NCBI GenBank assembly: GCA_020634215.1
Contig: JACKCD010000019.1
Coordinates: 30,975-94,974, forward strand
DNA length: 64,000 nucleotides
Direction: 5' to 3'
Origin: Ardenticatenaceae bacterium
GTDB taxonomy: Bacteria > Chloroflexota > Anaerolineae > Promineifilales > Promineifilaceae
A program made the translations under genes and the position numbers. Of the stretch, positions 45,157 to 57,785 are shown one piece after another. The notes under the pieces were generated by a model that made no database searches, was not told the DNA's origin, and was given only the letters and a program-made list of their open reading frames with translations. Position 1 is the first letter of the stretch. Every line of letters begins with the position of its first letter.

Positions 45157-46179
45157 CTAAATGAGACGTAAACTAGGAGTCACATCCAGGTTAAGGGTAT
45201 CAAAACGGCCGTTTTTGAAAGCCCAATACGCGGCTGCCCCAATCATGGCCGCGTTGTCGGTGCAAAGGACGGGGGGGGGGTAGCGCACGGGCAAATCAAT
45301 TTGCTGGCTCATCGCCTGGCGTAGCGCCCGGTTGGCCGACACCCCCCCCGCCAGATGAACGGCCGTTACCCCATGTTCCTGCGCCGCCTGCACCGTCTTG
45401 CTCACCAGCGACTCCACTACGGCGGCCTGAAAGCTGGCGGCCAAATCATTCACAGGCAGACGGTTGCTTTCAAATTTTTTGGTTTGGCGCAAAACGGCCG
45501 TTTTCAGCCCGCTAAAACTAAAATTATACCCATGCTCGCTCTGCATCACGGCGCGGGGGAAGCGGTACGCCTGCGCGTTGCCCTGCGTCGCTGCCTTGTC
45601 AATGGCCGGCCCACCCGGATACGGCAGCCCCAGCAGCCGCCCCACTTTGTCAAACGCCTCACCCGCCGCATCATCCAGCGTCCCACCCAAATGCTCATAC
45701 ACCCCGTGGTCACGCATCAAATAAAGCTCGGTATGGCCGCCGCTTACCACTAGCGTCAGCAGCGGAAATTCAATCTCCGCCGCCGCTTCCGTTAGCCACA
45801 GCGAATAGATGTGGCCTTCGATGTGGTTGACCCCAATCAGCGGTTTGCGCCGCGCCAGCGCCAGCCCTTTGGCGGCGTTCACCCCCACCAGCAGCGATCC
45901 TACCAGCCCCGGCCCCTTCGTCACGGCAATGGCATCAAGGTCGTCATAGCCGATGTGGGCCTGCTGCATTGCCTGCCGAATGACGGCATAAATTAGCTCC
46001 ACATGCTTGCGCGAAGCCACTTCAGGAAAAACCCCGCCGTACTTAGCGTGTAAATCGGTTTGGCTGGCGATCACGTTGCTGAGCATCCGCGTACCGTTTT
46101 CAACCACGGCGGCGGCGGTTTCATCACACGATGTTTCTATCGCCAGAATGCGAATCATTTGTTTTTCGGGGGTGACCAT
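45157..46179 (-). CDS. tsaD: tRNA N6-adenosine threonylcarbamoyltransferase TsaD
   Basis: 340 aa. ILAIETSCDETAAAVV, GVNHIEGH and SGGHTEL motifs. Confidence 0.95.
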   Translation of the reverse strand: MVTPEKQMIRILAIETSCDETAAAVVENGTRMLSNVIASQTDLHAKYGGVFPEVASRKHVELIYAVIRQAMQQAHIGYDDLDAIAVTKGPGLVGSLLVGVNAAKGLALARRKPLIGVNHIEGHIYSLWLTEAAAEIEFPLLTLVVSGGHTELYLMRDHGVYEHLGGTLDDAAGEAFDKVGRLLGLPYPGGPAIDKAATQGNAQAYRFPRAVMQSEHGYNFSFSGLKTAVLRQTKKFESNRLPVNDLAASFQAAVVESLVSKTVQAAQEHGVTAVHLAGGVSANRALRQAMSQQIDLPVRYPPPVLCTDNAAMIGAAAYWAFKNGRFDTLNLDVTPSLRLI

Positions 46180-46303
46180 AGGGCTAATTCTATCCTTAAG
46201 GGTGGGCTTACGTGTAAAACAGATTACTTTTTGCTTGCAAAAGTACCCACAAAGTTCATAAAAATCTCATATAGATTTATCGAGGTTGTTTATGCTTGTT
46301 TGC

Positions 46304-46383
46304 AGATAGAGATTAGGAGACTCGGAGATTAAGAGATTATTGGATAGCCGTAGTCTCCCAGTCTCTTAGTCTCTCAATCTCCC
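46304..46383. repeat. Inverted array of GAGAYT-core 8-nt-period repeats
   Basis: Left arm GAGATTAG GAGACTCG GAGATTAA GAGATTAT. Right arm is the imperfect complement and overlaps the last 5 codons of selA. Confidence 0.75.
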
Positions 46384-47760
46384 ACACTGCTGGAGAATTG
46401 CTTGCAGCAGCGTCTCTTCCTGATTAGGCAGCACGGTGCGGGGGTCGAGGAGAAAACGGCCGTTTTGAATGCGCCCAATCACCGGTGGGTTGTTGCCGCG
46501 CAGCCGCGCAGCCAGTTCATCCGGGTTGGGGTGGGGCAGGGCCAGCAGCGTGGTGGGCAAGCTGGTGCCAGGCAATGAGCCGCCGCCGACGGTCGAACGG
46601 CCGTTAATCACCTCACACTCAATCCCGCTCTCTGCCAGTCGGGTTGCCCATTGCTCCGCCCGTGCCGTAATGGCAGCCAGCGGTGCCGCAATCATCTGCC
46701 ACACCGGAATCTGGGTCGTGGCTTGTTCCGCCGCATAATGGCGCAGCGTGGCCGCCAATGCTGCCAGACACAGCTTGTCAGCTCGCACCGCCCGCGCCAG
46801 CGGATGCCGCTTTAGCTGGGCGATCAGGTCGGCGCGGCCGCACAAAATGCCCGCCTGCGGCCCCCCCAGCAGCTTGTCGCCGCTAAACGCCACCACATCA
46901 CACCCGGCTTCCAACCCCTCCGTCACCGTCGGCTCTGGCTCCAGCCCATAGGGAGCCACGTCCAGCAGCGCCCCGCTCCCCTGGTCATAGAGCAGGGGCA
47001 ACTGGTGGGCGTGTGCCAGTTCGGCCAGTTCGGCCAGCGTTGGTTCGCTGGTAAAGCCGATGATTTTGTAGTTGGAGTGGTGGGCAACCAAAATGGCGGC
47101 GGTGTTGGCGCTGATGGCGTTGGCGTAGTCGCGCAGGTGGGTTTTGTTGGTGGTGCCAACTTCCACCAGCTTAGCCCCCGACTGCACCATCACGTCGGGG
47201 ATGCGGAAGCCGCCGCCGATTTCGACAAGCTGCCCCCGGCTGATGATGACTTCGCGCCCCTGGCAAAGGGTGGTGAGCATGAGCAGGACGGCGGCGGCGT
47301 TGTTGTTGACGACGAGGGAGGCGGCGGAGCCGGTAATCTGGTTGAGCAGTTGTTCGCCGTGGATGGTGCGGGAGCCGCGCTGTCCGGCTTCGGGGTCGTA
47401 TTCGAGGGTGGAGTAGGTGGAAGAAACGGCCGTTATTGCCGCCACTGCCCCCTCACTCAGCGGTGCCCGCCCCAAATTGGTGTGGACAATTACCCCCGTG
47501 CCGTTGATCACCGGTCGTAATGTGGCCCCAAACTGGTCGTCCAGCCACGCCTGCGCCAGCCCTAACAGGTCGCTGGCCGTTATGCTACCGTTCCCGCCGG
47601 ACAAAATGTGCTGTCGCCGCTGGTCAAGGGTATGGCGCAACGCTTCGGTGGTCAATAAACGGCCGTATTCCCCCACCAGCCCCTCCGCTTGCAGCAGCAA
47701 TTTGTCCACGCTGGGCAGGTGACGTAAAAGGGAGCGATTATTGGGGTTATCGTTGTTCAT
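46366..47760 (-). CDS. selA: L-seryl-tRNA(Sec) selenium transferase SelA
   Basis: 464 aa. N-terminal LRHLPSVDKLL. PLP-lysine region VAFSGDKLLGGPQAG. Confidence 0.9.
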   Translation of the reverse strand: MNNDNPNNRSLLRHLPSVDKLLLQAEGLVGEYGRLLTTEALRHTLDQRRQHILSGGNGSITASDLLGLAQAWLDDQFGATLRPVINGTGVIVHTNLGRAPLSEGAVAAITAVSSTYSTLEYDPEAGQRGSRTIHGEQLLNQITGSAASLVVNNNAAAVLLMLTTLCQGREVIISRGQLVEIGGGFRIPDVMVQSGAKLVEVGTTNKTHLRDYANAISANTAAILVAHHSNYKIIGFTSEPTLAELAELAHAHQLPLLYDQGSGALLDVAPYGLEPEPTVTEGLEAGCDVVAFSGDKLLGGPQAGILCGRADLIAQLKRHPLARAVRADKLCLAALAATLRHYAAEQATTQIPVWQMIAAPLAAITARAEQWATRLAESGIECEVINGRSTVGGGSLPGTSLPTTLLALPHPNPDELAARLRGNNPPVIGRIQNGRFLLDPRTVLPNQEETLLQAILQQCGRLRD

Positions 47761-47767
47761 ACGAGAG

Positions 47768-47838
47768 AGTAATCGGTAATCAGTAATCGGTAATCAGTGA
47801 CCTCGTTACTGATTACCGATTACCGATTACTGATTACT
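47768..47838. repeat. Inverted array of GTAATC-core heptamer repeats (long hairpin)
   Basis: AGTAATC GGTAATC AGTAATC GGTAATC AGT - loop - complement. Lies between the selA start and the stop of the upstream membrane-protein gene. Confidence 0.85.
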
Positions 47839-48310
47839 GTAGCTGTGCGGCCCGCGTGCGGACTTGCAGCAGAAATTCAAACAAAATAAAGACGACTGCT
47901 ACCAAAATGACGATGGCGATGCCGAGGGTGCGGTTCATTTGCAGCCAGGTACAGAAGGCGATCCACAGCCCCACCCACATCGCCTGCCGCAGCGTGAGCA
48001 GGAAGCCGGGGGTTTGGCTAGAGCCGCTGAACCGTTTGTTGAGGAAAAAGACAAAGGGCAGCACCAGCCCGGTGACGGCCACGAGGACGGCGGCGAGAAA
48101 GGCGAGGATGATTTCGCTGTTGGCGGCGGCCATCAGGGTGGGGGCATCAATGGTGCCTTGCGCCGTAGCCCGCACCAAATCCAGCCGCTCCACGTCAAAC
48201 GGCCACCAGTTGTCCACAATGTGGTTGAGCGACAGCAGCCCCAGCCCCAGCAGGCTGAGGCCAAACAGCAGGGAGGGGATGACGCCGAGGCGGGTGAGGA
48301 ATCCTTTCAT
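47834..48310 (-). CDS. Small integral membrane protein of unknown function
   Basis: 158 aa with four hydrophobic segments. No motif recognised. The same-length plus-strand ORFs are shadows. Confidence 0.55.
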   Translation of the reverse strand: MKGFLTRLGVIPSLLFGLSLLGLGLLSLNHIVDNWWPFDVERLDLVRATAQGTIDAPTLMAAANSEIILAFLAAVLVAVTGLVLPFVFFLNKRFSGSSQTPGFLLTLRQAMWVGLWIAFCTWLQMNRTLGIAIVILVAVVFILFEFLLQVRTRAAQLQ

Positions 48311-48395
48311 AGGGGTGATTATACTTGAGTAGGGGCGTATTGCATACGCCCTTATCCCTTTCCCGCAATTCTCAGTTTAGCCCACGCCTTTGGCA

Positions 48396-48560
48396 GGGGC
48401 GGGATGACCGGGGGTAAAGCTGGCAACGCCGCTGGCCTTTTCTCCCGGTCGTCTCGCCCATGTATTGTCCAAACACACCGTTTTCGGCCACCACAAGGGC
48501 GAGACGGCGCGGAGACAGCACCATTTGTTCACCTTGCGCTTATCCGCGCCATCCCGCCCC
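48396..48560 (+). ncRNA. Candidate structured RNA or DNA element: perfect four-way junction (cloverleaf) of unknown class
   Basis: P1 48396-48406/48550-48560 (11 bp). P2 48407-48414/48442-48449 (8 bp, one G-U). P3 48450-48459/48497-48506 (10 bp). P4 48507-48513/48543-48549 (7 bp). The helices abut with no unpaired junction nucleotides. Confidence 0.45.
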
Positions 48561-48657
48561 CACCCTTAGCTGGCCCTTTGAACCGGATTTTTGGGGTTGA
48601 AAGCGCGGCTACAACCTGCTAGACTGCTGCCAACCAAACCGCCAGAGGCACTGCCCG

Positions 48658-51600
48658 ATGAACGACCGCGACATTATCCAGCAGATTGAACAGATTTTAG
48701 ACCGCCGCCTGTTTTTGAAGCCATACGAGCCAGACAAGCTGCGCGGAAAGAAAAGCTTCTGCCTCAACGAGGCGGGGCAGGTCATTCACCTCGGTCTGCC
48801 CCAGTGTGGCCTCAATGATGCCCTTATCAGCCAACTTTCCCCCATGCTCCAACAGTTGGGGCAGCTACAGACGCTCTCTTTAAGGAATAACCAAATCAGC
48901 GACCTCTCGTTTTTGTCGGGGCTGGGGCAGCTACAGACGCTCGATTTAAGTTCTAACCCAATCAGCGACCTCTCGTTTTTGTCGGGGCTGGGGCAGCTAC
49001 AGACGCTCGATTTAAGTTCTAACCCAATCAGCGACCTCTCGTTTTTGTCGGGGCTGGGGCAGCTACAGACGCTCGATTTAAGTTCTAACCCAATCAGCGA
49101 CCTCTCGTTTTTGTCGGGGCTGGGGCAGCTACAGACGCTCGATTTAAGTTCTAACCCAATCAGCGACCTCTCGTTTTTGTCGGGGCTGGGGCAGCTACAG
49201 ACGCTCGATTTAAGTTCTAACCCAATCAGCGACCTCTCGTTTTTGTCGGGGCTGGGGCAGCTACAGACGCTCGATTTAAGTTCTAACCCAATCAGCGACC
49301 TCTCGTTTTTGTCGGGGCTGGGGCAGCTACAGACGCTCGATTTAAGTTCTAACCCAATCAGCGACCTCTCGTTTTTGTCGGGGCTGGGGCAGCTACAGAC
49401 GCTCGATTTAAGTTCTAACCCAATCAGCGACCTCTCGTTTTTGTCGGGGCTGGGGCAGCTACAGACGCTCGATTTAAGTTCTAACCCAATCAGCGACCTC
49501 TCGTTTTTGTCGGGGCTGGGGCAGCTACAGACGCTCGATTTAAGTTCTAACCCAATCAGCGACCTCTCGTTTTTGTCGGGGCTGGGGCAGCTACAGACGC
49601 TCGATTTAAGTTCTAACCCAATCAGCGACCTCTCGTTTTTGTCGGGGCTGGGGCAGCTACAGACGCTCGATTTAAGTTCTAACCCAATCAGCGACCTCTC
49701 GTTTTTGTCGGGGCTGGGGCAGCTACAGACGCTCGATTTAAGTTCTAACCCAATCAGCGACCTCTCGTTTTTGTCGGGGCTGGGGCAGCTACAGACGCTC
49801 GATTTAAGTTCTAACCAAATCAGTGACCTCTCGTTTTTGCAGCATTTGCCTGCTTTGGAACAGGTTGATCTGGCTAAAAACAAGTTAACAGAGCTGCCAG
49901 CCTGGATCACCGAAAAGGGGTTGGGCATTGATGTAATCAGTAAATACGGTGGCAATCACGGGGATATTAGGCTGGCTGAAAATCCCATTGCCACGCCGCC
50001 GCTGGAAATTGTGCAGCAGGGCAAGGCGGCCATCCGCGCCTACTTCCGTTCGCTGGAAGGGCAAGAAACGGTGCAGCTCAACGAGGTCAAGCTGCTGCTG
50101 GTGGGGGAAGGGATGGCCGGCAAAACGTCGCTGCTCAAGCGGCTGCAGGGGCTTCCCTTTGATGCCCAGGAGTCGCAAACCCACGGCATCAACGTGGTCA
50201 CGCTCCCCGCCGCCAGCATCAGCGGGCTGGAAGCCCACGCCGACCTGGCCGAATGCCAGCTCCACTGCTGGGATTTTGGCGGGCAGGAAATCATGCACGC
50301 CTCACACCAATTCTTCCTCAGCCAGCGCGCCCTCTACATCCTCGTCATTGACAGCCGCACCGACGACAAAAAGCACCACTGGCTCAAGCATATCGAAAAA
50401 TTTGGCGGCAAATCCTCTCCCCTCATCGTCGCCATGAACAAAATGGATATCAACCCTGGCTACAACGTCGAGCAAAACAGCCTCAACAGCAGCTTTCCCA
50501 GCATCAAAAACCGCTTCGTCCGCCTCTCCTGCCACACCGAGGCTGGCCTGCCCGACCTCATCCACCACATCGCCGCCGCCATCCCCGAAACCTCCCTCTT
50601 TGGCAGCCCGATCAGCGTCGCCTGGATGAACGTCAAAAACCAGCTTGAACGGGAAACAGCCTCCAAACGGTACATCAGCCAAGCTCGCTTTCTCGCCATC
50701 TGCCAGGAGAACAACGTCCACGACCGCGACAGCCAGCAAACCCTCCTGCAATACCTCCACGATCTCGGCATCGTCCTCTATTTCAAGCAGCTCAACCTCG
50801 CCAGCATCTACGTCCTCGACCCCCACTGGGTCACCATCGGCGTTTACAAAATCATCAATTCCGAAAAGGTGGTTGAAGGGCGGCTGCAAGAAAGCGACCT
50901 CGACTACATTCTCAACGAGGAGCCGATCAAAAAGCAAGAATATGACCCGGCCAGCAAGCAAAGCATTCGCTACAGCCTCGACGAACAACGCTACATCCTC
51001 AACATCATGCAGCAGTTTGAACTCTGCTACCTCTATAACGAGCGACGGCGCGAATACATCATCCCCAGCCAGCTTCCCAAAGAGATCAACAGCGAGCCAA
51101 ACCTGGATGAAGGTACCCCGCTGCGCTTTATCATGCGCTACGACTATCTGCCTGCCACCATCATCCCGCGCACCATGATTGACTTCAGAAACGACATCGA
51201 GCCGGGGCAGCAGTGGCGTTTTGGCATGGTGCTCCAAAACTCCAGCACCCAGTGCCGCGCCAAAATCAAGGCCGATGAGCAGAAAAAGTCCATCGAGATC
51301 ACCGTGCAGGGGGAAGCCCACCGCAAGCGGGAATATTTTGCCATCATCCGCCACACCCTGCGCGACATCAGCAGCGAATTTGAAAATTTGCAGATTGAGG
51401 AGTGGATTCCGCTGCCCGGCCACCCCGACTTTTTGGTTGAGTACCAGGTGCTGCTGGGGCATGAGCAGGAAAAGCGGGAGGAATATTTTGACGGCAAGCT
51501 GCGCAAGAGCTTCCCCGTCTCCCAACTGCTGGACAGCGTCATCAGCCCCGCCGACCGCCAGCGGGATAGCCATTTGTTAAACGACATGCTGCGCGATGCC

Positions 51601-52119
51601 AAAATGGTGAACTTTGGGACTTACTATGCGGGGGAACATCATGAGGGAGACAGAACGCAGGTGGGCGACATTACCGAGGCCACCGGAATAGCTGTTGGCA
51701 GAAAGAGCCGGGCCAGCGTGGGCAGCAGCCTCCCGCCCACCCCGCCCCCGCTGACAGAAGCAGAGCAAGCGGAGCTGGCTGCCCTCGCCACCCACAAACA
51801 ACTGCTTGAGCGCCCCCTGCGGCTGTGGGCGCGGGTGGCAGCGGTGGGGTATGTGCTGCTGTATGTGGGGTTGCTGCTGCTGGTTTGGTGGCTGCTCAAC
51901 AAGCTGGTGGCGTGGCAAAGCTGGGACACGCTGGAGCCGTATACGTGGATTGTAAGCGTGGTGATGGCTCTGGCCGCACCGCTGCTCGTCTGGTTGGCTC
52001 CAGACCGGCTTAGCCCATACGCGCTGAGGGATTGGCTATTTGCGCGGCTGCAGCGGCGCAGCTTTGAGAAACATGGGTTCAAGCTGGAACGGTATGAGGC
52101 ACTGCGGGCAAGGGTGTAG
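48658..52119 (+). CDS. ROCO protein: LRR array, Roc GTPase, COR domain and a C-terminal two-helix TM region
   Basis: 1153 aa. 22-aa LRR units LQTLDLSSNPISDLSFLSGLGQ. Roc motifs GEGMAGKTS, WDFGGQE, NKMD. C-terminal hydrophobic helices VAAVGYVLLYVGLLLLVWWLL and WIVSVVMALAAPLLVWLA. Confidence 0.85.
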   Translation: MNDRDIIQQIEQILDRRLFLKPYEPDKLRGKKSFCLNEAGQVIHLGLPQCGLNDALISQLSPMLQQLGQLQTLSLRNNQISDLSFLSGLGQLQTLDLSSNPISDLSFLSGLGQLQTLDLSSNPISDLSFLSGLGQLQTLDLSSNPISDLSFLSGLGQLQTLDLSSNPISDLSFLSGLGQLQTLDLSSNPISDLSFLSGLGQLQTLDLSSNPISDLSFLSGLGQLQTLDLSSNPISDLSFLSGLGQLQTLDLSSNPISDLSFLSGLGQLQTLDLSSNPISDLSFLSGLGQLQTLDLSSNPISDLSFLSGLGQLQTLDLSSNPISDLSFLSGLGQLQTLDLSSNPISDLSFLSGLGQLQTLDLSSNPISDLSFLSGLGQLQTLDLSSNQISDLSFLQHLPALEQVDLAKNKLTELPAWITEKGLGIDVISKYGGNHGDIRLAENPIATPPLEIVQQGKAAIRAYFRSLEGQETVQLNEVKLLLVGEGMAGKTSLLKRLQGLPFDAQESQTHGINVVTLPAASISGLEAHADLAECQLHCWDFGGQEIMHASHQFFLSQRALYILVIDSRTDDKKHHWLKHIEKFGGKSSPLIVAMNKMDINPGYNVEQNSLNSSFPSIKNRFVRLSCHTEAGLPDLIHHIAAAIPETSLFGSPISVAWMNVKNQLERETASKRYISQARFLAICQENNVHDRDSQQTLLQYLHDLGIVLYFKQLNLASIYVLDPHWVTIGVYKIINSEKVVEGRLQESDLDYILNEEPIKKQEYDPASKQSIRYSLDEQRYILNIMQQFELCYLYNERRREYIIPSQLPKEINSEPNLDEGTPLRFIMRYDYLPATIIPRTMIDFRNDIEPGQQWRFGMVLQNSSTQCRAKIKADEQKKSIEITVQGEAHRKREYFAIIRHTLRDISSEFENLQIEEWIPLPGHPDFLVEYQVLLGHEQEKREEYFDGKLRKSFPVSQLLDSVISPADRQRDSHLLNDMLRDAKMVNFGTYYAGEHHEGDRTQVGDITEATGIAVGRKSRASVGSSLPPTPPPLTEAEQAELAALATHKQLLERPLRLWARVAAVGYVLLYVGLLLLVWWLLNKLVAWQSWDTLEPYTWIVSVVMALAAPLLVWLAPDRLSPYALRDWLFARLQRRSFEKHGFKLERYEALRARV
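48901..49758 (+). repeat. 13 perfect tandem copies of a 66-bp unit (in-frame LRR repeats), flanked by diverged copies
   Basis: The unit start GACCTCTCG recurs at 48901 + 66n for n = 0 to 13. The 14th unit has two substitutions (NQISD). Confidence 0.9.
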
Positions 52120-52129
52120 CAGTTGCGTT

Positions 52130-53263
52130 TCAGGCTCTTTTCATTTCGAGCGCAGATAACGGGAGGCCAAAAAAGTGGGCAAGCTGGGTGGCGTAGTGGG
52201 AAACGGTTTCTGTCAACCTTTCCCCACACCATTCCTCAAACAGTTCCACCGTAACACCAATCCCGCTGTCTGACCGATCATACCGCCAGGTTCCCACAAT
52301 GCGGCCATGCTCCAGCACAACCCCCTCAATGTGCCCGGCCGGCCGCCACACCCGTTTGTAATACGCCATATCAATCAGCCAACTTTTTTCCCGGTGCCCC
52401 AGCAGCAGCGGTTCAAAGCGGTAAAGCAGCCGAATCGGCCACGCTTCCCGTTCCGGCGGCGTTTCGGCCATCGCCTCCAGGTCGGAGAGCAGTGCCAGCA
52501 TTGGCGTTCCCGCCGCGTCCAATTCCACCACCCCCTCGCCCAGTGCCTTCAGCCAGCGGCGAATGTCGCTCAGATTACGGCCGCGCCAATAGCCAATGTC
52601 CTGCACCGTGGCCGGGCCATAGGCGTGGAGAAAACGCCACACCAGCTCAATGTTGGCTGCCTCGGCGTTGGGCGGTACCCATTTCAGGTCGGGTAGCCAA
52701 TAGTCGCGGTGGGCAAACAGCCCCTCGCTGCCGTCCCGCCCAGCGTGGCAGGCGTGGCCGCGATAGACCAAATCGCGGAAGATGCCGCCCCAGGCGGAAA
52801 AAAGATCGCCGTGAACATCCAAATCGCTGTCGCGCAGGTCGCTGCGCCCCATGATTCCCCGTTGCCGCAGCAGTTCGGCCAAATCGGCCACCAATTGCTG
52901 GTATTGGGCGTGGTCTACGCCGCTTTTCACCGCCCGCAGCTCTTGCCACGCCACTTCCAAAGGCATGGCAGCGTGGATGAGCGCCCATTCACGGCTGGTG
53001 TAAAGATGGAGCGTTTGCCGCTGCCCCCATAGCTTGACCAAGCTGCGTTCGGTAAACAGCATCTCTTCAAAGCGGGCGTAGGTTAACCCGGTGGTGCGGT
53101 TCCACAGGGAAATGGCGGCGGCGGGGAGGATTTGGGCTTGGATGCCAGCGAGGGTGGAAACGGCCGTTGTGACAGCTTCTGTCAACACCCCATCAAACGG
53201 CTTCACCAGCCCCGACCGCCGCAGCCGAAACCAGCGAATTTGCGCTTCTGTCAGTCGAATCAT
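52130..53263 (-). CDS. Winged-helix DUF1006 (HTH_42) protein, AlkZ/YcaQ-family DNA glycosylase-like
   Basis: 377 aa. N-terminal MIRLTEAQIRWFRLRRSGL. A QxQ motif in LAGIQAQILP. Overall family resemblance only. Confidence 0.6.
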   Translation of the reverse strand: MIRLTEAQIRWFRLRRSGLVKPFDGVLTEAVTTAVSTLAGIQAQILPAAAISLWNRTTGLTYARFEEMLFTERSLVKLWGQRQTLHLYTSREWALIHAAMPLEVAWQELRAVKSGVDHAQYQQLVADLAELLRQRGIMGRSDLRDSDLDVHGDLFSAWGGIFRDLVYRGHACHAGRDGSEGLFAHRDYWLPDLKWVPPNAEAANIELVWRFLHAYGPATVQDIGYWRGRNLSDIRRWLKALGEGVVELDAAGTPMLALLSDLEAMAETPPEREAWPIRLLYRFEPLLLGHREKSWLIDMAYYKRVWRPAGHIEGVVLEHGRIVGTWRYDRSDSGIGVTVELFEEWCGERLTETVSHYATQLAHFFGLPLSALEMKRA

Positions 53264-53276
53264 TGGACGTTACAGA

Positions 53277-53310
53277 AGAAGTTCAACTTCTTTTGAGAAG
53301 TTGAACTTCT
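53277..53310. repeat. 34-nt perfect hairpin element, copy 2 (loop TTTG)
   Basis: AGAAGTTCAACTTCT-TTTG-AGAAGTTGAACTTCT. 13 nt upstream of the minus-strand start at 53263. Confidence 0.9.
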
Positions 53311-53437
53311 AAATAGGTATTTGCAAGGCCAGGAGGGTCTGGTTGTTAGCCTGGTAGCCAACGAGGAAATAGTTGTCAATCATAGGGTGTAGCTTAAGGA
53401 AATTATCCACCTGCTCAAAATAAATTGCAATGAGAGA

Positions 53438-56400
53438 TCAAGTTATCCCCAATTTACGAAGTCGGCTACGAATAGCGGATGGCTGACGTTCCAACAGGTT
53501 GGAGATGGCCTGCGTACCATGGTGGTTGATAAAAAGCTGTCGCAACTTTTCATCTTCTTCGTTTGACCAGGTTTCGTAAGCACGGGGATAGCTGGCCTTG
53601 ATTTGGTTTAACCGCTCGTGGTAGGCGGATGTGGTGGCATATACAGGATCGGGTTGTTCGGTCGTTTCTAGCCAGTAAATGAGCCGCATGATGTGGAGTT
53701 CGTCGAACTCGATGGTCTCGTTGAAGGCATCGAAGTAGGGGCGCAGATAATCGGTGTCGAGTTCGGCGAATTTTTGGAGAACGGCCGTTTGCACCTCCTC
53801 CATCAAACCCGAAGCCATCCGTAGCTTCTCCACAGGTAGCCTATTTCCAGCCTCCACATAGTTGCTCAAATGTCCCAAAATCGTCCTTCGCTTTACAGCA
53901 TAATTCGCCATTAACGCCTCGATAGATTGTCCGTTAGCAAAGGCTTCTCCCACCTCTTCCCAGCGGGATTTGCTAATGGTGGTGCGGTGGGGCTGGGCAG
54001 CAGGGCGGGATGGGGCGATTTTAGGCTTTTCGCTCAAGTTATTTTTGGCGCAAAAATTACGGATGAGAGGTAGGAAGATGTCGGCATATTGTTCTACTTT
54101 GGCTTGGCCGATGCCGTGTAACTGGCTAAAGGTGTTGGCTGAATGGGGGAAGTAGGTTGCCATTTCTTGTAAGGCACGGTCGGGGAAGATGACGTAGGGA
54201 GGAACGCCAACCTGGTCGGCCAGTTCCTTGCGTTTTTGGCGCAGGAGGTGGAAGAGGGTGGGGTCGTAAACGGCCGTTTCCATTTCCACGCTCCTTATCA
54301 CTTGTTTGGCTAATTGGCCCCACACTTTTGCCTCATTTTTGAGTACGGACCAAGCGGCATTGGTTAGCTTAAGGCCGCCATGTTCTTGGTCTTGGACGAG
54401 TAGCCCTTGCTGAATGAATTGGCGGGCTAAATGTTGCCAATCACTTTTGGAGAATTCGCGGCCGATGCTGTAGGCGGAGAGGCGATCATGCCCTTTTTGC
54501 AACACTTTTTGGGAACGGGAGCCGCGAAGCACGTCAATGATGTGGTTTATGCCGTATAGCTGGCCGGTGCGGTAGGCGCAGGAGAGAAATTTTTGGGCGG
54601 GGATGGTGAGATCGTCTAGTTCGTGTTTTTCACGTAGACAGTTGTCACACATCTGGCAATTATCTTTGGGGTAATTTTCGCCAAAGTAGGCGATGAGTTG
54701 TTGGCGGCGGCAAACGGCCGTTTCTGCCCAACTCACCATCGTTTGTAAACGCGCCTCGCTGCCACGCTGCTCAGATTCTGCCCCTTGTTTAATGAAGCGA
54801 CGAATCGTTGCCACATCGCCGTAGTCAAAGAGCAGCAGACAGTTGGAGCGGAGGCCATCGCGCCCAGCCCGGCCAATTTGCTGGTAATAATGCTCCATGT
54901 TTTGCGGCAAATCTACATGTAGGATGAAGCGCACATCGGGTTTGTCTATGCCCATGCCAAAGGCGATGGTGGCGACCATGATTGGCACATTGTCGCGGAT
55001 GAAGGCCGTTTGGTTGTGGCTGCGCGTAGCATTGTCCAGGCCAGCGTGGTAAGGTAGCACGGATAACCCTCGGTTGGTTAATTCTTCGGTTAGGGTATCT
55101 ACCGTCTTGCGGGTGGCGCAATAGATAATGCCCGATTGGTCGGGATGGGCGGCGATGAAGTTGAGAGTCTGCTCCAGGGTGTTGGTCTTGGGGGCGACTT
55201 CGATGAAGAGGTTGGGGCGGTCGAAGCTGGCGATGAAGGTGTTGCGCTCCTTGAAGTTGAGGCTTTGCTGGATGTCTTGCTGGACGCGAGGTGTAGCGGT
55301 GGCAGTAAGGGCGACGGTGACGATGTGGGGTAGCCGCTGGCGCACGGTGACGAGTTGGCGGTATTCGGGGCGAAAGTCGTGGCCCCATTGGGAGATGCAG
55401 TGGGCTTCGTCTATGGCGAGGCAGGCGAGATTGCTTTGTTCGAGGAGGAGCAGGGTTTCGGGTCGCAGCAGGGTTTCGGGGGCGACGTAGAGCAGTTTGA
55501 CGTGGCCTTGGCGGATGGCTTGGCTGGTTTTGAGGTATTGGAGATAGCTGAGGGTGCTGTTGAGGAAAACGGCCGTTATTCCTACCGCCTGCAACTGCGA
55601 CACCTGATCTTGCATGAGGGAAATAAGGGGTGAAACAACGACGGTGAGGCCATCAAACAGCAATGCCGGAATCTGATAGCAAAGTGATTTGCCGCCACCG
55701 GTGGGCATGATGACGAGCGTATCTCGCTTTTTCAGGACGTTGTTAATGATTTCAGCCTGGATGGGGCGGAACTCTTCGTAGCCAAAGATGGTTTGCAGAA
55801 CTTCTTGAGGAGATTGGAGATTAGAGACTGGAGATTGGGAAATGGGGAGATTGAAGGGAATGGATTGGGGTGTGTCAAAATAGTGGACTTCATCAGATAA
55901 CGGGTAGTCGGGCAGCCAGAGATCATCATCGTCGTAGGTGGGCAGGAACCAGCCGGAAAGTTGGAGGTAGCAGCGGGGTTCTTCGGCCGACCGATCTGCG
56001 GGCTGCCACCAATGCGCCAGGGATACGCGCAATAGCGTGCCTGCGGGAATCTCCTCCGGCGGTTCTTGGAAGCCGACGAAGGTAAGGGTACGTCCGCCAT
56101 TAGCGGTGGGGTAGCGGTAGCGGATGCGTTTGCCCTCGGTGTCTCGCACTAATAGTTGATCGGGTCGCCAAAACATGGTGCTATAGGTGGGGATGCCTCC
56201 TTTTTCGCTGATATACATAGCCCCCGTCTCTCTGTGTTGCACCAAACCATCATAGAGGACATCCAGGCCGCCCGTTTTGGGCGGCATATGTTTTTCGATG
56301 AAGGGGATGATGCCAGACAGGGGAGCGAGGCGGACTTTGTGCTGGATGAGGACATCTTCGGTGTGGGGAAGGGGGCGATGGGAGAGAACGGCCGTTTCCA

Positions 56401-56554
56401 CCTCCCACACGTCCCCCACTTCAAACACCATGTTGGCGCGTTCATTGCTCTCCATGTCTGGCGCAACCAGGCGCACACTTTGTCCGGCAAAGGTAATGCC
56501 ACCAATACAGGCCCTTCCCCCCATTCTCGTTTTAGCGACGATTAAAACTTTCAT
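53438..56554 (-). CDS. recQ: RecQ-family DNA helicase with an about 250-aa N-terminal extension and extra C-terminal HTH-like domains
   Basis: 1038 aa. The RecQ core starts at LQTIFGYEEFRPIQ. Motifs MPTGGGKS and DEAHCISQWGHDFRPEY. Zn-binding CRRQ...CQMCDNC. HRDC (LRQKRKELADQVGVPPYVIF). The N-terminal MKVLIVAKTRMGGRACIGGI... region was not recognised with confidence. Confidence 0.9.
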   Translation of the reverse strand: MKVLIVAKTRMGGRACIGGITFAGQSVRLVAPDMESNERANMVFEVGDVWEVETAVLSHRPLPHTEDVLIQHKVRLAPLSGIIPFIEKHMPPKTGGLDVLYDGLVQHRETGAMYISEKGGIPTYSTMFWRPDQLLVRDTEGKRIRYRYPTANGGRTLTFVGFQEPPEEIPAGTLLRVSLAHWWQPADRSAEEPRCYLQLSGWFLPTYDDDDLWLPDYPLSDEVHYFDTPQSIPFNLPISQSPVSNLQSPQEVLQTIFGYEEFRPIQAEIINNVLKKRDTLVIMPTGGGKSLCYQIPALLFDGLTVVVSPLISLMQDQVSQLQAVGITAVFLNSTLSYLQYLKTSQAIRQGHVKLLYVAPETLLRPETLLLLEQSNLACLAIDEAHCISQWGHDFRPEYRQLVTVRQRLPHIVTVALTATATPRVQQDIQQSLNFKERNTFIASFDRPNLFIEVAPKTNTLEQTLNFIAAHPDQSGIIYCATRKTVDTLTEELTNRGLSVLPYHAGLDNATRSHNQTAFIRDNVPIMVATIAFGMGIDKPDVRFILHVDLPQNMEHYYQQIGRAGRDGLRSNCLLLFDYGDVATIRRFIKQGAESEQRGSEARLQTMVSWAETAVCRRQQLIAYFGENYPKDNCQMCDNCLREKHELDDLTIPAQKFLSCAYRTGQLYGINHIIDVLRGSRSQKVLQKGHDRLSAYSIGREFSKSDWQHLARQFIQQGLLVQDQEHGGLKLTNAAWSVLKNEAKVWGQLAKQVIRSVEMETAVYDPTLFHLLRQKRKELADQVGVPPYVIFPDRALQEMATYFPHSANTFSQLHGIGQAKVEQYADIFLPLIRNFCAKNNLSEKPKIAPSRPAAQPHRTTISKSRWEEVGEAFANGQSIEALMANYAVKRRTILGHLSNYVEAGNRLPVEKLRMASGLMEEVQTAVLQKFAELDTDYLRPYFDAFNETIEFDELHIMRLIYWLETTEQPDPVYATTSAYHERLNQIKASYPRAYETWSNEEDEKLRQLFINHHGTQAISNLLERQPSAIRSRLRKLGIT

Positions 56555-56578
56555 GAGCGACTGGATAATGAGTGATTT

Positions 56579-56612
56579 AGAAGTTCAACTTCTTTGGAGA
56601 AGTTGAACTTCT
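56579..56612. repeat. 34-nt perfect hairpin element, copy 3 (loop TTGG)
   Basis: AGAAGTTCAACTTCT-TTGG-AGAAGTTGAACTTCT. 24 nt upstream of the recQ start at 56554. Confidence 0.9.
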
Positions 56613-56640
56613 TGCTTACCTATGGTTGAATGATGACTTA

Positions 56641-57135
56641 CTACACATCCGGCAGTAAATGCGCCACTTCTAGCTGGTACGCCTCCGCTAATTTGTTAGC
56701 CACAAGGGAGCGATGACAGGCAGTTGGCTCCCGCTCTACACAAAAAAGGGCGATGGTCTGGGCAGCGTCAGGTAGGGCATCTAGCAGCGATTGGGACTGA
56801 AACTGAGACAAGATTTCGGCTTCGTAGGCCGCGATGAAGGTGTCGGAAAGAGCGGTGCGTTGACGTTTAGCGGTTTTGCTGGCTTTATCGGCCGCCTCTT
56901 GGCGGGCGCGAACGGCTTGGCTGGGGGCTAAATCTTGCAGATGCAAGTAACGGATACCCATTTCGGCCAATCGAGCTTGCAAACGCTGGCTGTTGGCAAA
57001 GGCGTACTGAGAGTCACGCACCCCGCGTCGCCGCCGAATATCGCAAAAGGTGTCTACCCCAGCCTCAGTCAACGCGGCAAAAAAGCCCTCTTCTGTAAAC
57101 CCATAAACGCCAATGGTCACAATTTTCAGCTTCAT
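56641..57135 (-). CDS. DUF488-family protein
   Basis: 164 aa. IVTIGVYGFTEEGFF...CDIRRRR...ALFCVEREPTACHRSLV. Confidence 0.75.
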   Translation of the reverse strand: MKLKIVTIGVYGFTEEGFFAALTEAGVDTFCDIRRRRGVRDSQYAFANSQRLQARLAEMGIRYLHLQDLAPSQAVRARQEAADKASKTAKRQRTALSDTFIAAYEAEILSQFQSQSLLDALPDAAQTIALFCVEREPTACHRSLVANKLAEAYQLEVAHLLPDV

Positions 57136-57785
57136 TCTATCTCCTCTGCTCCGGCGTTCCTTTGCTCCCCTGCTTCTTCATATCGTTTACGCGACGTGAA
57201 GGTATGTTCCCCAAAGAGGCTCAGCTGCCCAGCGGTGAGGCGGTTGATAACGGCCGTTTGCCCCACCACCTCATTATTCTCATCAATATGCGCTACGGGA
57301 ATCTCTAACTGGGTCAGCGTTGCTCCGATTAACTTGCTGCGGTGGCATGTTTCTGGCTTGCCCTCACTGCACATGAGCATCACAGCCTGCTGCTGTTGAA
57401 AGGCGGTTTGCAGACGGCCGATCCCTGCCTGATAAAAAGCCGTTTGCTTTACCTTCTCATAATCCACCTTGCCATCTGTGTAACAACTGGTATCAGACGG
57501 CCGGCCGCCCAAGCTGTCGCCCATAAAAACGTAGCGAATCCCTGCTGCCTGTAAAGCCTCTGGCAAAGACTCCTTGCCAAACTCTGGTTTATAGCGGGAG
57601 TAGGGGGCAGAGCGAATGTCAATGAGGTAGGCGATGTGGTGTTGTTGGAGAACGGCCGTAAAATCCGCCAACGACCGACTGCCATAACCGATGGTGTAGA
57701 TAGGGATTAACTGTCCGAGCATGAAGCGATTATAATCCAGCCTGGCTGTTATGACGACAAAAGGAGACGAGAAATCGTTCAGCAA
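57132..57785 (-). CDS. DUF488-family protein (second paralog); likely start at ATG 57722
   Basis: IYTIGYGSRSLADF...LIDIRSAPYSRYKPEF...MLMCSEGKPETCHRSKL. 4-nt overlap with the downstream DUF488 gene. Confidence 0.75.
   Translation of the reverse strand: MLNDFSSPFVVITARLDYNRFMLGQLIPIYTIGYGSRSLADFTAVLQQHHIAYLIDIRSAPYSRYKPEFGKESLPEALQAAGIRYVFMGDSLGGRPSDTSCYTDGKVDYEKVKQTAFYQAGIGRLQTAFQQQQAVMLMCSEGKPETCHRSKLIGATLTQLEIPVAHIDENNEVVGQTAVINRLTAGQLSLFGEHTFTSRKRYEEAGEQRNAGAEEIE

What the first reader, a model, noticed from the sequence alone, without database searches (positions are those of the whole stretch)
48658..52119. LRR-Roc-COR protein with a C-terminal membrane module and 13 sequence-identical LRR units: candidate NLR-like sensor
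The architecture is a sensor-like LRR array, a Roc GTPase switch with its COR domain, then a tail with two hydrophobic helices that could act as a membrane effector or anchor. Thirteen consecutive 66-bp units (48901-49758) are identical at the nucleotide level. This implies very recent expansion or ongoing homogenisation, and the ability to change LRR number in frame by slippage or recombination. Bacterial ROCO proteins are largely uncharacterised. STAND/GTPase-switch proteins with repeat sensors and membrane effectors have been proposed as conflict or immunity systems in multicellular bacteria. The gene also lacks the iterated palindrome.
Basis: partly seen in the sequence, partly recalled or inferred. 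Interest (0 to 1): 0.7.

Follow-up and report, generated by a model that had tools for sequence, protein, structure and literature searches.

The report
LRRK2-like GTPase fused to uniporter pore
This bacterial gene joins a leucine-rich-repeat sensor and an LRRK2-type GTPase switch to a membrane domain homologous to the pore of the mitochondrial calcium uniporter, so it looks like a GTP-switched cation channel, probably a cell-suicide or alarm device, and its sensor carries 13-14 DNA-identical repeats.

Summary
ORF 48658-52119 (+) encodes a 1153-aa LRR-Roc-COR protein. It has two C-terminal TM helices and a perfectly periodic 66-bp tract at 48894-49816 (13 identical units).

[quoted passage not shown] The window protein alone is marginal (Pfam E 8e-4, below cut-off). 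A profile of 11 related ROCO tails hits every MCU structure at E 1e-15 to 1e-13. W and E of the filter are near-invariant in 165 relatives.

ROCO-MCU fusions recur in Chloroflexota, Aminicenantes, Spirochaetes and Bacteroidota. In Aminicenantes they sit among Schlafen-like ATPase, toxin-antitoxin and transposase genes.

Here the gene is a 3.8-kb cassette without the genome's iterated palindrome (AACGGCCGTT). It replaces a dehydrogenase gene in an otherwise syntenic relative.

Best reading: a single-protein, GTP-switched cation-channel effector of the predicted prokaryotic ROCO conflict-system class. Channel activity and immune role are inferred, not shown. Repeat copy number is not independently verified; one short-read assembly breaks exactly at the array. 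The architecture was already catalogued as LRR+AP-GTPase+COR+TM+TM, without the MCU link.

The parts
48335..52145 (.). Variable cassette carrying the ROCO-MCU gene. A syntenic relative (L013) has a 1.04-kb 2-hydroxyacid-dehydrogenase gene here instead.
   Evidence: Flanks align at 84-88% nt identity up to about 48333 and from about 52145-52165; the interior is unrelated. There are no ACGGCCGT palindromes inside.
48597..48625 (+). Sigma-70-like promoter candidate (TTGAAA-17-TAGACT, with TG), 33 nt upstream of the ATG.
   Evidence: Consensus scan: 1 found against 0.1 expected. This is a consensus match only.
48658..52119 (+). CDS, 1153 aa: LRR - Roc - COR-A - COR-B - linker - MCU-like 2-TM pore domain.
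   Evidence: The N-terminus aligns with the full-length relative P0012.
48856..49911 (+). LRR solenoid: 16 units of 22 aa (SDS22/internalin-like LxxLxLxxNxIxD).
   Evidence: Pfam LRR_4/LRR_8; unit coordinates.
48894..49816 (+). Perfectly periodic 66-bp tract. It holds 13 identical units, aa 89-374 in codon register.
   Evidence: Short-read contig L025 ends at 48923.
49981..50055 (+). LRR C-terminal cap / linker helix NPIATPPLEIVQQGKAAIRAYFRSL, conserved with CtRoco.
   Evidence: Alignment to 6hlu.
50089..50583 (+). Roc GTPase domain. P-loop at 50104-50127, DFGGQ at 50272-50286, NKMD at 50437-50448.
   Evidence: Pfam Roc 2.8e-31 and Ras 3.5e-11; motifs.
50620..51534 (+). COR-A (50620-51069) and COR-B (51121-51534), the dimerisation device.
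   Evidence: Pfam. Roc-COR matches CtRoco structures 6hlu, 3dpu and 8r4b at E 1.4e-182.
51535..51747 (+). Low-complexity Pro/Ser/Gly-rich linker (aa 960-1030).
   Evidence: No family match; composition read directly from the sequence.
51748..52116 (+). MCU-homologous pore domain: CC1, TM1 (51823-51897), filter, TM2 (51937-51996), CC2 (52012-52116).
   Evidence: - Pfam MCU E 8e-4.
- PDB phmmer: the top 12 hits are all MCU.
- Family profile against PDB MCU: E 1.7e-15.
- AF2 plus Foldseek: the top 11 hits are all MCU.
51922..51939 (+). W-D-T-L-E-P (aa 1089-1094), in register with the MCU selectivity filter WDxxEP.
   Evidence: Alignments. W is present in 162/165 and E in 163/165 relatives. The motif definition comes from PMC3410928.

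Best explanation
The gene encodes a single-polypeptide sensor-switch-effector of the prokaryotic ROCO ('AP-GTPase') class.

Components:
- A cytoplasmic 16-unit LRR solenoid acts as the sensor or autoinhibitory arm.
- The Roc-COR tandem is a GTP-dependent conformational and oligomerisation switch, as in Chlorobaculum tepidum Roco.
- The C-terminal 124 aa are a membrane-inserted homologue of the MCU pore domain.

Predicted topology: both ends of the pore domain are cytoplasmic, and the acidic W-D-x-x-E-P loop faces the periplasm. This matches MCU, whose filter faces the intermembrane space.

Proposed mechanism: four tails would form a cation (probably Ca2+-permeable) pore. A stimulus sensed through the LRR/Roc-COR module changes the nucleotide or oligomeric state. 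That opens or assembles the pore, giving Ca2+/cation influx and depolarisation. The most likely outcome is growth arrest or death of an infected cell in a filament, or otherwise an alarm signal.

History of this copy: the gene is a recently acquired 3.8-kb cassette. Its LRR array was very recently expanded from one variant unit by unequal recombination or slippage.

Shown here: domain identities, homology to MCU, conservation of filter residues, cassette status and repeat identity.

Inferred: topology, tetramerisation, ion conduction, coupling to GTP, and a conflict function.
For: Roc-COR identity:
- Pfam hits lie above cut-offs.
- CtRoco structures match at E 1.4e-182.
- G1, G3 and G4 motifs are intact here and in every complete ROCO-MCU relative.

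MCU homology:
- Single-sequence PDB search returns MCU as all of the top 12 hits, with SWDTLEP aligned to SWDIMEP.
- An 11-sequence ROCO-tail profile hits 13 MCU PDB sequences at E 1.7e-15 to 9e-13 across CC1-TM1-filter-TM2-CC2. The next non-MCU hit is at 0.0036.
- Relatives P0168, P0132 and P0139 pass Pfam's MCU gathering score.
- The AF2 model (pLDDT 83) breaks the helix exactly before W1089. Foldseek's top 11 PDB hits are all human MCU, with prob 1.0 and TM 0.54-0.60.

Functional constraint on the pore: W is kept in 162/165 relatives, E in 163/165, P in 77% and T in 84%.

Topology: there are 10 K/R after TM2 against 1 in the TM1-TM2 loop. There is no signal peptide and no other hydrophobic segment.

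Conflict-type signals:
- ROCO-MCU genes in Aminicenantes sit among SLFN_AlbA_2, AAA_14/DUF4143, HicB, YhcG and transposase genes. Paralogue presence or absence differs between L008 and L010.
- Other relatives lie next to TA-like or PD-(D/E)XK genes.
- The MCU-like module is also fused to CHAT and WD40.
- A published prediction treats LRR-AP-GTPase-COR proteins with variable C-terminal effectors as conflict systems, and catalogues the architecture '...COR+TM+TM' (PMC8195603).
- The Runella gasdermin-activating protease is Roc-COR-CHAT, an experimental precedent for a bacterial ROCO upstream of a membrane-pore death effector (bioRxiv 10.1101/2021.06.07.447441).

Cassette status: synteny break against L013 and absence of the palindrome.

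GTP-driven dimer-to-monomer switching and LRR swing in CtRoco are described in PMC11052575.
Against: - No experiment exists on any ROCO-MCU protein.
- The window protein alone scores below Pfam's MCU cut-off (19.9 against 30.8 bits).
- Its coiled-coil arms are shorter than in most relatives.
- The D of the filter is not conserved: D 53%, N 24% overall, and the 90%-identical relative P0002 has WNTLEP. Ca2+ selectivity is therefore uncertain.
- ROCO dimers must be reconciled with a tetrameric pore.
- This gene's own neighbours are housekeeping or repair genes.
- PADLOC has no model for it.
- Its GC and GC3 are not outliers.
- Thirteen identical LRRs give a uniform rather than a diversified binding surface.
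- Foldseek E-values are only about 1e-2, since helical hairpins carry little information.
Confidence: 0.5

Rival explanations
1. A housekeeping or signalling channel. The protein is a GTPase-regulated Ca2+ or divalent-cation entry channel used for normal physiology of a filamentous Chloroflexota cell, such as Ca2+ signalling, motility or stress response. It is not used for conflict.
For: - It has the same domain and filter evidence as the main model.
- Its local neighbours are housekeeping, repair or two-component-system genes.
- There is no PADLOC match.
- No effector-type enzymatic domain is present.
- Eukaryotic MCU is itself a physiological channel.
Against: - The gene is absent from a close syntenic relative and lacks the genome's palindrome, so it is accessory and recently acquired.
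- Relatives lie in island-like contexts with transposases and TA genes and vary in paralogue number.
- The LRR arrays of relatives vary at the predicted concave-face positions.
- The same pore module is swapped onto CHAT and WD40 proteins.
Confidence: 0.25
2. Anchor only. The MCU-like hairpin merely tethers and oligomerises the ROCO protein at the membrane. The output goes through Roc-COR-dependent protein interactions, not through ion conduction.
For: - The D position of the filter is variable, and the closest relative has N.
- The coiled-coil arms are shortened in this subgroup.
- The monomer model cannot show a pore.
Against: - Near-invariance of W, E, P and T of the filter across 165 diverged relatives is hard to explain for a passive anchor.
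- The whole CC-TM-filter-TM-CC unit is conserved with eukaryotic channels at E 1e-15.
Confidence: 0.13
3. Artefact or decay. The 13-copy identical array is partly an assembly or polishing artefact (wrong copy number or over-homogenised units), and/or the gene is a recently landed, non-functional passenger.
For: - No independent contig spans the array.
- Short-read contigs of the same or related strains stop at it (L025 ends at 48923; L006 starts in the last unit).
- Among 266 related proteins the longest identical run is 3 units.
Against: - The left junction and first variant unit are reproduced independently.
- The 3' 1.6 kb plus flank is reproduced at 100% identity over 5307 bp in a separate dataset.
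- The 3.46-kb ORF is intact with all motifs.
- Relatives also carry 66-bp arrays of 3-18 units at 76-89% identity.
- The scarcity of long identical runs in databases is expected from short-read assemblies.
Confidence: 0.1

Closest known systems
Chlorobaculum tepidum Roco (CtRoco; PDB 6HLU, 3DPU, 8R4B), the bacterial LRRK2 model
   Same: - It has the same LRR-Roc-COR core; Roc-COR matches at E 1.4e-182, about 55% identity.
- It has the same G motifs and the same LRR-cap helix.
- CtRoco is a COR-B-mediated dimer that monomerises on GTP, with a 135-degree LRR swing (PMC11052575).
   Different: CtRoco is soluble. Its last ~150 residues are flexible and uncharacterised, and authors describe bacterial Rocos as 'only LRR-Roc-COR'. 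The protein here ends in a 2-TM MCU-like pore domain and has a homogenised 13-unit LRR tract.
Mitochondrial calcium uniporter pore subunit MCU (Pfam PF04678; e.g. PDB 6D7W, 6XQN, 6O58)
   Same: - It has the CC1-TM1-WDxxEP-TM2-CC2 unit, with W, D, E, P and T of the filter in register.
- The predicted topology is equivalent: the filter faces the periplasm or intermembrane space and the termini face the cytoplasm or matrix.
   Different: - There is no MCU N-terminal domain, no mitochondrial targeting, and no EMRE or MICU partners nearby.
- The pore unit is fused behind a ~1000-aa ROCO module.
- The coiled coils are shorter.
- The window protein is below Pfam's cut-off on its own.
- Conduction and selectivity are untested.
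Prokaryotic AP-GTPase (ROCO) conflict systems predicted by Kaur, Iyer, Burroughs and Aravind 2021 (PMC8195603)
   Same: LRR + AP-GTPase + COR with a variable C-terminal 'effector' position. [quoted passage not shown]
   Different: The words MCU and uniporter do not occur in that paper or its 26 supplementary files, so the 2-TM tail was not linked to the uniporter. I could not check that their TM+TM entries are the same family.
Runella Roc-COR-CHAT protease that activates bacterial gasdermin (bioRxiv 10.1101/2021.06.07.447441)
   Same: A bacterial Roc-COR protein sits upstream of a membrane-permeabilising death effector. CHAT is also found fused to the MCU-like module (P0163).
   Different: There the pore (gasdermin) is a separate protein released by proteolysis. 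Here the putative pore is fused in cis and would be a small ion channel, not a large lytic pore.
NLR/STAND immune sensors (Avs, bNACHT, plant and animal NLRs)
   Same: The logic is the same: repeat sensor, then NTP switch, then effector.
   Different: The switch here is a Ras-like GTPase with COR, not a STAND ATPase, so this is an analogue and not a member.
Brown-algal ROCO genes with shuffled single-LRR exons (PMC3341825, PMC11378527), and bacterial surface proteins with identical large tandem repeats (from my own knowledge, e.g. streptococcal alpha C protein)
   Same: LRR or repeat number and order change by recombination of near-identical cassettes. Unit changes stay in frame.
   Different: Here all internal units are identical, so only length varies, not sequence repertoire. 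The protein is cytoplasmic or inner-membrane, not surface-exposed.

Membership tests
ROCO proteins | Roc (Ras-like GTPase) domain immediately followed by COR-A and COR-B | tested here: met
   Pfam Roc 108.7 bits, COR-A 125 bits and COR-B 84.5 bits, all above the curated cut-offs. CtRoco structures match at E 1.4e-182.
ROCO proteins | Intact nucleotide-binding motifs G1 GxxxxGK[ST], G3 DxxGQ and G4 NKxD | tested here: met
   GEGMAGKT (aa 483-490), DFGGQ (539-543) and NKMD (594-597).
ROCO proteins | GTP binding/hydrolysis and a nucleotide-dependent dimer-monomer cycle | not testable with these tools
   Known for CtRoco (PMC11052575). Here it is inferred from about 55% identity.
MCU family (Pfam PF04678) | Two TM helices joined by a short loop carrying W-D-x-x-E-P | tested here: met
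   TM1 is aa 1056-1080 and TM2 is aa 1094-1113. WDTLEP is at aa 1089-1094, aligned to MCU WDIMEP/WDTMEP.
MCU family (Pfam PF04678) | Sequence match to the curated family model above the gathering score | tested here: inconclusive
   - The window protein scores 19.9 bits, E 8.2e-4, against a cut-off of 30.8, so this is not met on its own.
- A profile of 11 ROCO tails hits all PDB MCUs at E 1e-15 to 1e-13.
- Relatives P0168 (59.2), P0132 (58.9) and P0139 (37.6) pass the cut-off.
MCU family (Pfam PF04678) | Flanking coiled-coil helices CC1 and CC2 and the MCU fold | tested here: met
   The profile alignment spans CC1 to CC2. The AF2 model has helices 5-58, 60-84, 91-109 and 114-123. Foldseek's top 11 hits are all MCU, TM 0.54-0.60. 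CC arms are shorter than in most relatives.
MCU family (Pfam PF04678) | Tetrameric Ca2+-selective, ruthenium-sensitive channel | not testable with these tools
   Only conservation of the E ring (163/165) and W (162/165) speaks for a pore. The D ring is variable.
MCU family (Pfam PF04678) | MCU N-terminal domain and MICU/EMRE partners (the eukaryotic holocomplex) | tested here: not met
   The sequence upstream of CC1 is COR-B plus a linker. No conserved partner gene appears in five relatives' loci. It is therefore a homologue of the pore domain, not an orthologue of the uniporter.
Prokaryotic AP-GTPase conflict systems (Kaur et al. 2021) | N-terminal LRRs + AP-GTPase + COR + variable C-terminal effector domain | tested here: met
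   Architecture. The catalogued class '...COR+TM+TM' is in their source data.
Prokaryotic AP-GTPase conflict systems (Kaur et al. 2021) | Behaviour of a conflict gene: accessory, island-associated, variable between relatives | tested here: inconclusive
   - The gene is accessory and recently acquired here.
- Relatives lie in island-like contexts.
- This copy lies among housekeeping genes.
- There is no PADLOC model.
- No functional data exist.
NLR / STAND NTPases | NACHT/NB-ARC-type STAND ATPase domain | tested here: not met
   There are no STAND, NACHT or NB-ARC hits; the switch is Roc/Ras-like.
SLATT 2-TM effectors | Match to SLATT family models | tested here: not met
   No SLATT family appears among the Pfam hits at E<=0.1. 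The tail matches MCU instead.

The most novel reading that the evidence does not exclude
Bacterial ROCO-MCU proteins are GTP-gated, Ca2+-permeable inner-membrane channels that execute abortive infection or programmed cell death (or raise a Ca2+ alarm) in multicellular bacteria. The pore of the eukaryotic mitochondrial calcium uniporter descends from this pool of bacterial conflict-system effectors, as proposed for gasdermins, TIR and caspase-like domains. The close kinship to CtRoco would also provide a natural, directly measurable output (ion current) for the LRRK2-type Roc-COR switch.
Probability: 0.2. Interest if true: 0.85.

Novelty: new variant of a known kind. Interest (0 to 1): 0.62.

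Why it matters
Bacterial Roco proteins are the main structural model for the Parkinson's-disease kinase LRRK2. They are described as having no output domain and no known function. A natural fusion of a CtRoco-like core (about 55% identity) to an ion-channel pore would give the Roc-COR switch a measurable output.

The mitochondrial calcium uniporter has no characterised prokaryotic relative. A bacterial family with the same filter, often fused to sensor and switch modules (ROCO, CHAT, WD40), bears on where the uniporter pore came from. It would also add a Ca2+ or cation channel to the list of bacterial death or immune effectors.

The identical 66-bp LRR units are a clean example of in-frame repeat expansion in a putative sensor. 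They also warn that such arrays are systematically lost from short-read assemblies.

Tried and rejected
- Tail-only word-indexed protein search found only a 99%-identical fragment. The full HMMER scan was needed.
- The genome-contig scan with Roc-COR-tail found only three distant ROCOs and not the source genome.
- Metagenome scans found nothing. The exact 24-mer of the repeat junction gave 0 hits. Alignment A1 was not conserved enough to search with. Alignment A2 gave no confirmed hit.
- The viral-contig scan with A2 found nothing.
- Rfam found nothing in 47700-52300.
- PADLOC gave only a spurious LRR-to-Cas2_II hit with 0 stretches for the ROCO. RecQ hits to DpdF models look generic.
- The divergent upstream 158-aa membrane protein is not related to the gene upstream of P0012 (E 0.74). 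It is conserved in the ROCO-less relative L013, so it is not a partner.
- The first AF2 model (11 sequences) showed no TM1-TM2 break. Only the 18-sequence model did.
- GC and GC3 do not mark the gene as foreign.
- No second ROCO or MCU-like gene is in the window.
- Literature: no paper found with 'bacterial MCU', or with 'calcium uniporter' plus 'anti-phage'. Bick et al. 2012 could not be retrieved. My recollection that it mentions bacterial MCU homologues is unverified. PMC7423614 only notes bacterial sequences in its tree.

Full report
**1. The observation**

The ORF 48658-52119 (+) is intact and encodes 1153 aa.

Tandem Repeats Finder reports a 66-bp period with 14.9 copies at 48857-49839 (99% matches, no indels). 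A base-by-base test shows perfect 66-nt periodicity from 48894 to 49816 (923 nt).

In codon register, thirteen 22-aa units LGQLQTLDLSSNPISDLSFLSG occupy aa 89-374. They are flanked by diverged units:
- ...SLRNNQ... on the left;
- ...SSNQISDLSFLQH and LPALEQVDLAKNKL... on the right.

Homogenised interior units with diverged edge units are the classical footprint of unequal crossing-over or slippage. The amplified unit carries Pro after the LRR Asn, where the flanking units and relatives have Gln. So one variant unit was amplified. There are no synonymous differences, so the identity arose at the DNA level and is recent. A 66-nt unit equals 22 codons, so copy-number changes stay in frame.

Pfam confirms LRR, Roc, COR-A and COR-B, all above the curated cut-offs. 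The G1, G3 and G4 motifs are intact. Hydropathy finds exactly two hydrophobic segments, both at the C-terminus.

**2. The palindrome remark**

HIP1 (GCGATCGC) is absent from the window. The iterated palindrome is AACGGCCGTT, with 85 copies against 0.07 expected. None of the 97 ACGGCCGT cores lies in the gene. The largest palindrome-free gap of the window (47659-53160) contains the gene. P(0) is about 0.005 for the gene.

**3. What the tail is**

Pfam gives a weak hit to the mitochondrial calcium uniporter family (aa 1067-1149, E 8e-4, below the cut-off).

A single-sequence search of the PDB with aa 960-1153 returns MCU as all twelve best hits (best E 7e-4). SWDTLEP aligns to the selectivity filter SWDIMEP / GWDTMEP.

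Searching with Roc-COR-tail found 4818 ROCO proteins. A subset of them has tails carrying the same motif, and several already carry a precomputed Pfam MCU hit.

A profile of 11 such tails (A1) hits 13 distinct MCU sequences in the PDB at E 1.7e-15 to 9e-13 over almost the whole profile (CC1-TM1-filter-TM2-CC2). The next unrelated hit is at 0.0036.

Relatives from Spirochaetes, Bacteroidota and Aminicenantes pass Pfam's own MCU cut-off while also being LRR-Roc-COR proteins.

An AF2 model built from 18 tails (pLDDT 83) breaks the long helix exactly before W1089. Foldseek returns human MCU as its 11 best PDB matches (prob 1.0, TM 0.54-0.60, rmsd about 4.3 A). E-values are only about 1e-2, as expected for a helical hairpin. 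An earlier, shallower model did not resolve the turn.

Homology of the tail to the MCU pore domain is therefore established at family level. It is not an orthologue of the uniporter. It has no MCU N-terminal domain and no MICU or EMRE partners.

**4. Is the pore likely functional?**

Among 165 MCU-like domains in hand (39 of them ROCO-fused), filter residues are conserved as follows:

| Residue | Conservation |
|---|---|
| W | 162/165 |
| E | 163/165 |
| P | 77% |
| T | 84% |
| D | 53% D, 24% N |

The 90%-identical relative P0002 has WNTLEP. The glutamate ring is the constrained element, so selectivity may differ from MCU.

The charge distribution is 10 K/R after TM2 against 1 in the loop, and there is no signal peptide. 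This predicts N-in/C-in with the acidic loop outside. That orientation is topologically equivalent to MCU. An open pore would admit cations down the membrane potential.

**5. How widespread, and in what company?**

The exhaustive profile search finds 1305 cluster representatives at E<=1e-3 and 309 at E<=1e-10. They fall into these groups:
- ROCO fusions;
- short stand-alone proteins;
- fusions to CHAT, WD40 and other N-terminal regions;
- eukaryote-type WDIMEPVT sequences.

ROCO-MCU genes have no conserved partner gene. Their contexts are:
- In Aminicenantes they lie between Schlafen-like ATPase, AAA_14/DUF4143, HicB, YhcG and transposase genes. One genome has two paralogues flanking a transposase where a related genome has one.
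- Other copies lie next to TA-like or PD-(D/E)XK genes or XisH/XisI.

**6. This copy is an accessory cassette**

TsaD places the host in Chloroflexota (Anaerolineae/Ardenticatenia-type names). The closest ROCOs are from Anaerolineales MAGs.

A relative with 96% identical TsaD (L013) has the same gene order: DUF488-DUF488-DuOB/RecQ-AlkZ-[X]-TM158-SelA-TsaD-HK-HK, with flanks at 84-88% nt identity. At X it carries a 1.04-kb 2-hydroxyacid-dehydrogenase gene, where the window has the 3.8-kb ROCO cassette at about 48335-52145. L013 has the palindrome at normal density, including one copy inside that dehydrogenase gene.

The 90%-identical ROCO gene (L005) has a different downstream neighbour.

Together with the missing palindromes, this indicates recent horizontal acquisition. 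GC and GC3 are unremarkable.

**7. Is the array real?**

Independent assemblies reproduce parts of the region:
- window 50532-55838 at 100% identity (L023);
- window 51709-52270 at 100% identity (L007);
- window 47811-48923 at 99.5% identity (L025).

L025 stops exactly at the first base of the first identical unit. The contig of P0003 starts inside the last LRR unit.

So the array exists and breaks short-read assemblies, but its copy number rests on this assembly alone.

Relatives have 66-bp arrays of 3-18 units at 76-89% identity. The longest identical run in 266 related proteins is 3 units, a figure biased by short-read data.

In P0012 the variable positions are the x positions of LxxLxLxxNx, the predicted concave face. 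In the window these positions are uniform.

**8. Mechanism**

From CtRoco (about 55% identical Roc-COR): the nucleotide-free protein is a COR-B dimer with the LRR folded back on COR. GTP drives monomerisation and a 135-degree LRR swing (PMC11052575).

I propose that the same switch controls assembly or gating of a tetrameric MCU-like pore formed by the tails. The result would be cation or Ca2+ influx and depolarisation.

The conflict reading rests on three things:
- the computational prediction for LRR-AP-GTPase-COR proteins with variable effectors, including a catalogued '...COR+TM+TM' class (PMC8195603);
- the experimentally studied Runella Roc-COR-CHAT protease that activates a gasdermin pore;
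- the accessory, island-type behaviour described above.

None of this is experimental evidence for this protein. Confidence is about 0.95 for the architecture and MCU homology, about 0.5 for a gated channel, and about 0.4-0.5 for a conflict role.

**9. Novelty**

The architecture is listed in the supplementary data of PMC8195603 as TM+TM. Automated Pfam annotation flags MCU on some relatives.

The words MCU and uniporter are absent from that paper and its supplements. I found no paper on bacterial MCU homologues beyond a passing mention in a tree legend.

I therefore rate it a new variant of a known kind, with moderate-to-high interest.

Noticed in passing
whole window (e.g. 298-307, 45204-45213, 53159-53168); also L013: AACGGCCGTT is a highly iterated palindrome in this Chloroflexota genome: 85 copies in 64 kb against 0.07 expected. 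It behaves like cyanobacterial HIP1 but has a different sequence (core CGGCCG). It is equally dense in the relative L013. Besides the ROCO cassette, palindrome-poor stretches lie at about 16.4-19.2 kb, 21.7-27.9 kb and 32.2-34.9 kb, and may mark other recent acquisitions.
   Followed up: partly
window 52130-57785 (-): A cluster of an AlkZ-like DNA glycosylase, a RecQ helicase with an N-terminal DuOB domain, and two DUF488 genes is conserved in L013. The DUF488 proteins hit PADLOC candidate defence systems PDC-M45B/C and PDC-M19A. It is either a possible defence or repair module next to the ROCO cassette, or generic family hits.
   Followed up: partly
proteins P0039, P0042, P0076, P0093, P0105 (cable bacteria and others): ROCO proteins of Electrothrix/Electronema carry a different conserved, non-TM C-terminal tail (...SRLGKALEFVDQ..KV..LARTYN..GLPxVPPLLLG). 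It has no Pfam match and is another uncharacterised ROCO output module.
   Followed up: no
proteins P0163, P0148, P0157: The MCU-like pore domain is also fused to a CHAT protease, to WD40 repeats (MCU at the N-terminus) and to a squalene-hopene-cyclase-like repeat region. This suggests a modular prokaryotic pore cassette.
   Followed up: partly
L008 10001-17146 versus L010 10001-12739: In one Aminicenantes contig two ROCO-MCU paralogues flank a Transposase_31 gene. A related genome has only one ROCO-MCU gene at the same site.
   Followed up: partly
window 47768-47839: Short tandem repeats (14-bp x2.2 and 7-bp TTACTGA x4.9) lie in the spacer between selA and the 158-aa membrane-protein gene.
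   Followed up: no
L014-L022 (relatives), equivalent to window ~46180-46370: Nine independent Logan contigs of close relatives all begin 192 nt upstream of tsaD. This is a recurrent assembly break in the tsaD-selA spacer and hints at a repeated or variable element there.
   Followed up: no
P0002 / L005 (Anaerolineales MAG GCA_020432745.1): The 90%-identical orthologue has WNTLEP instead of WDTLEP in the filter, and a different downstream gene (a membrane protein). Its contig starts about 80 nt after the LRR array.
   Followed up: partly
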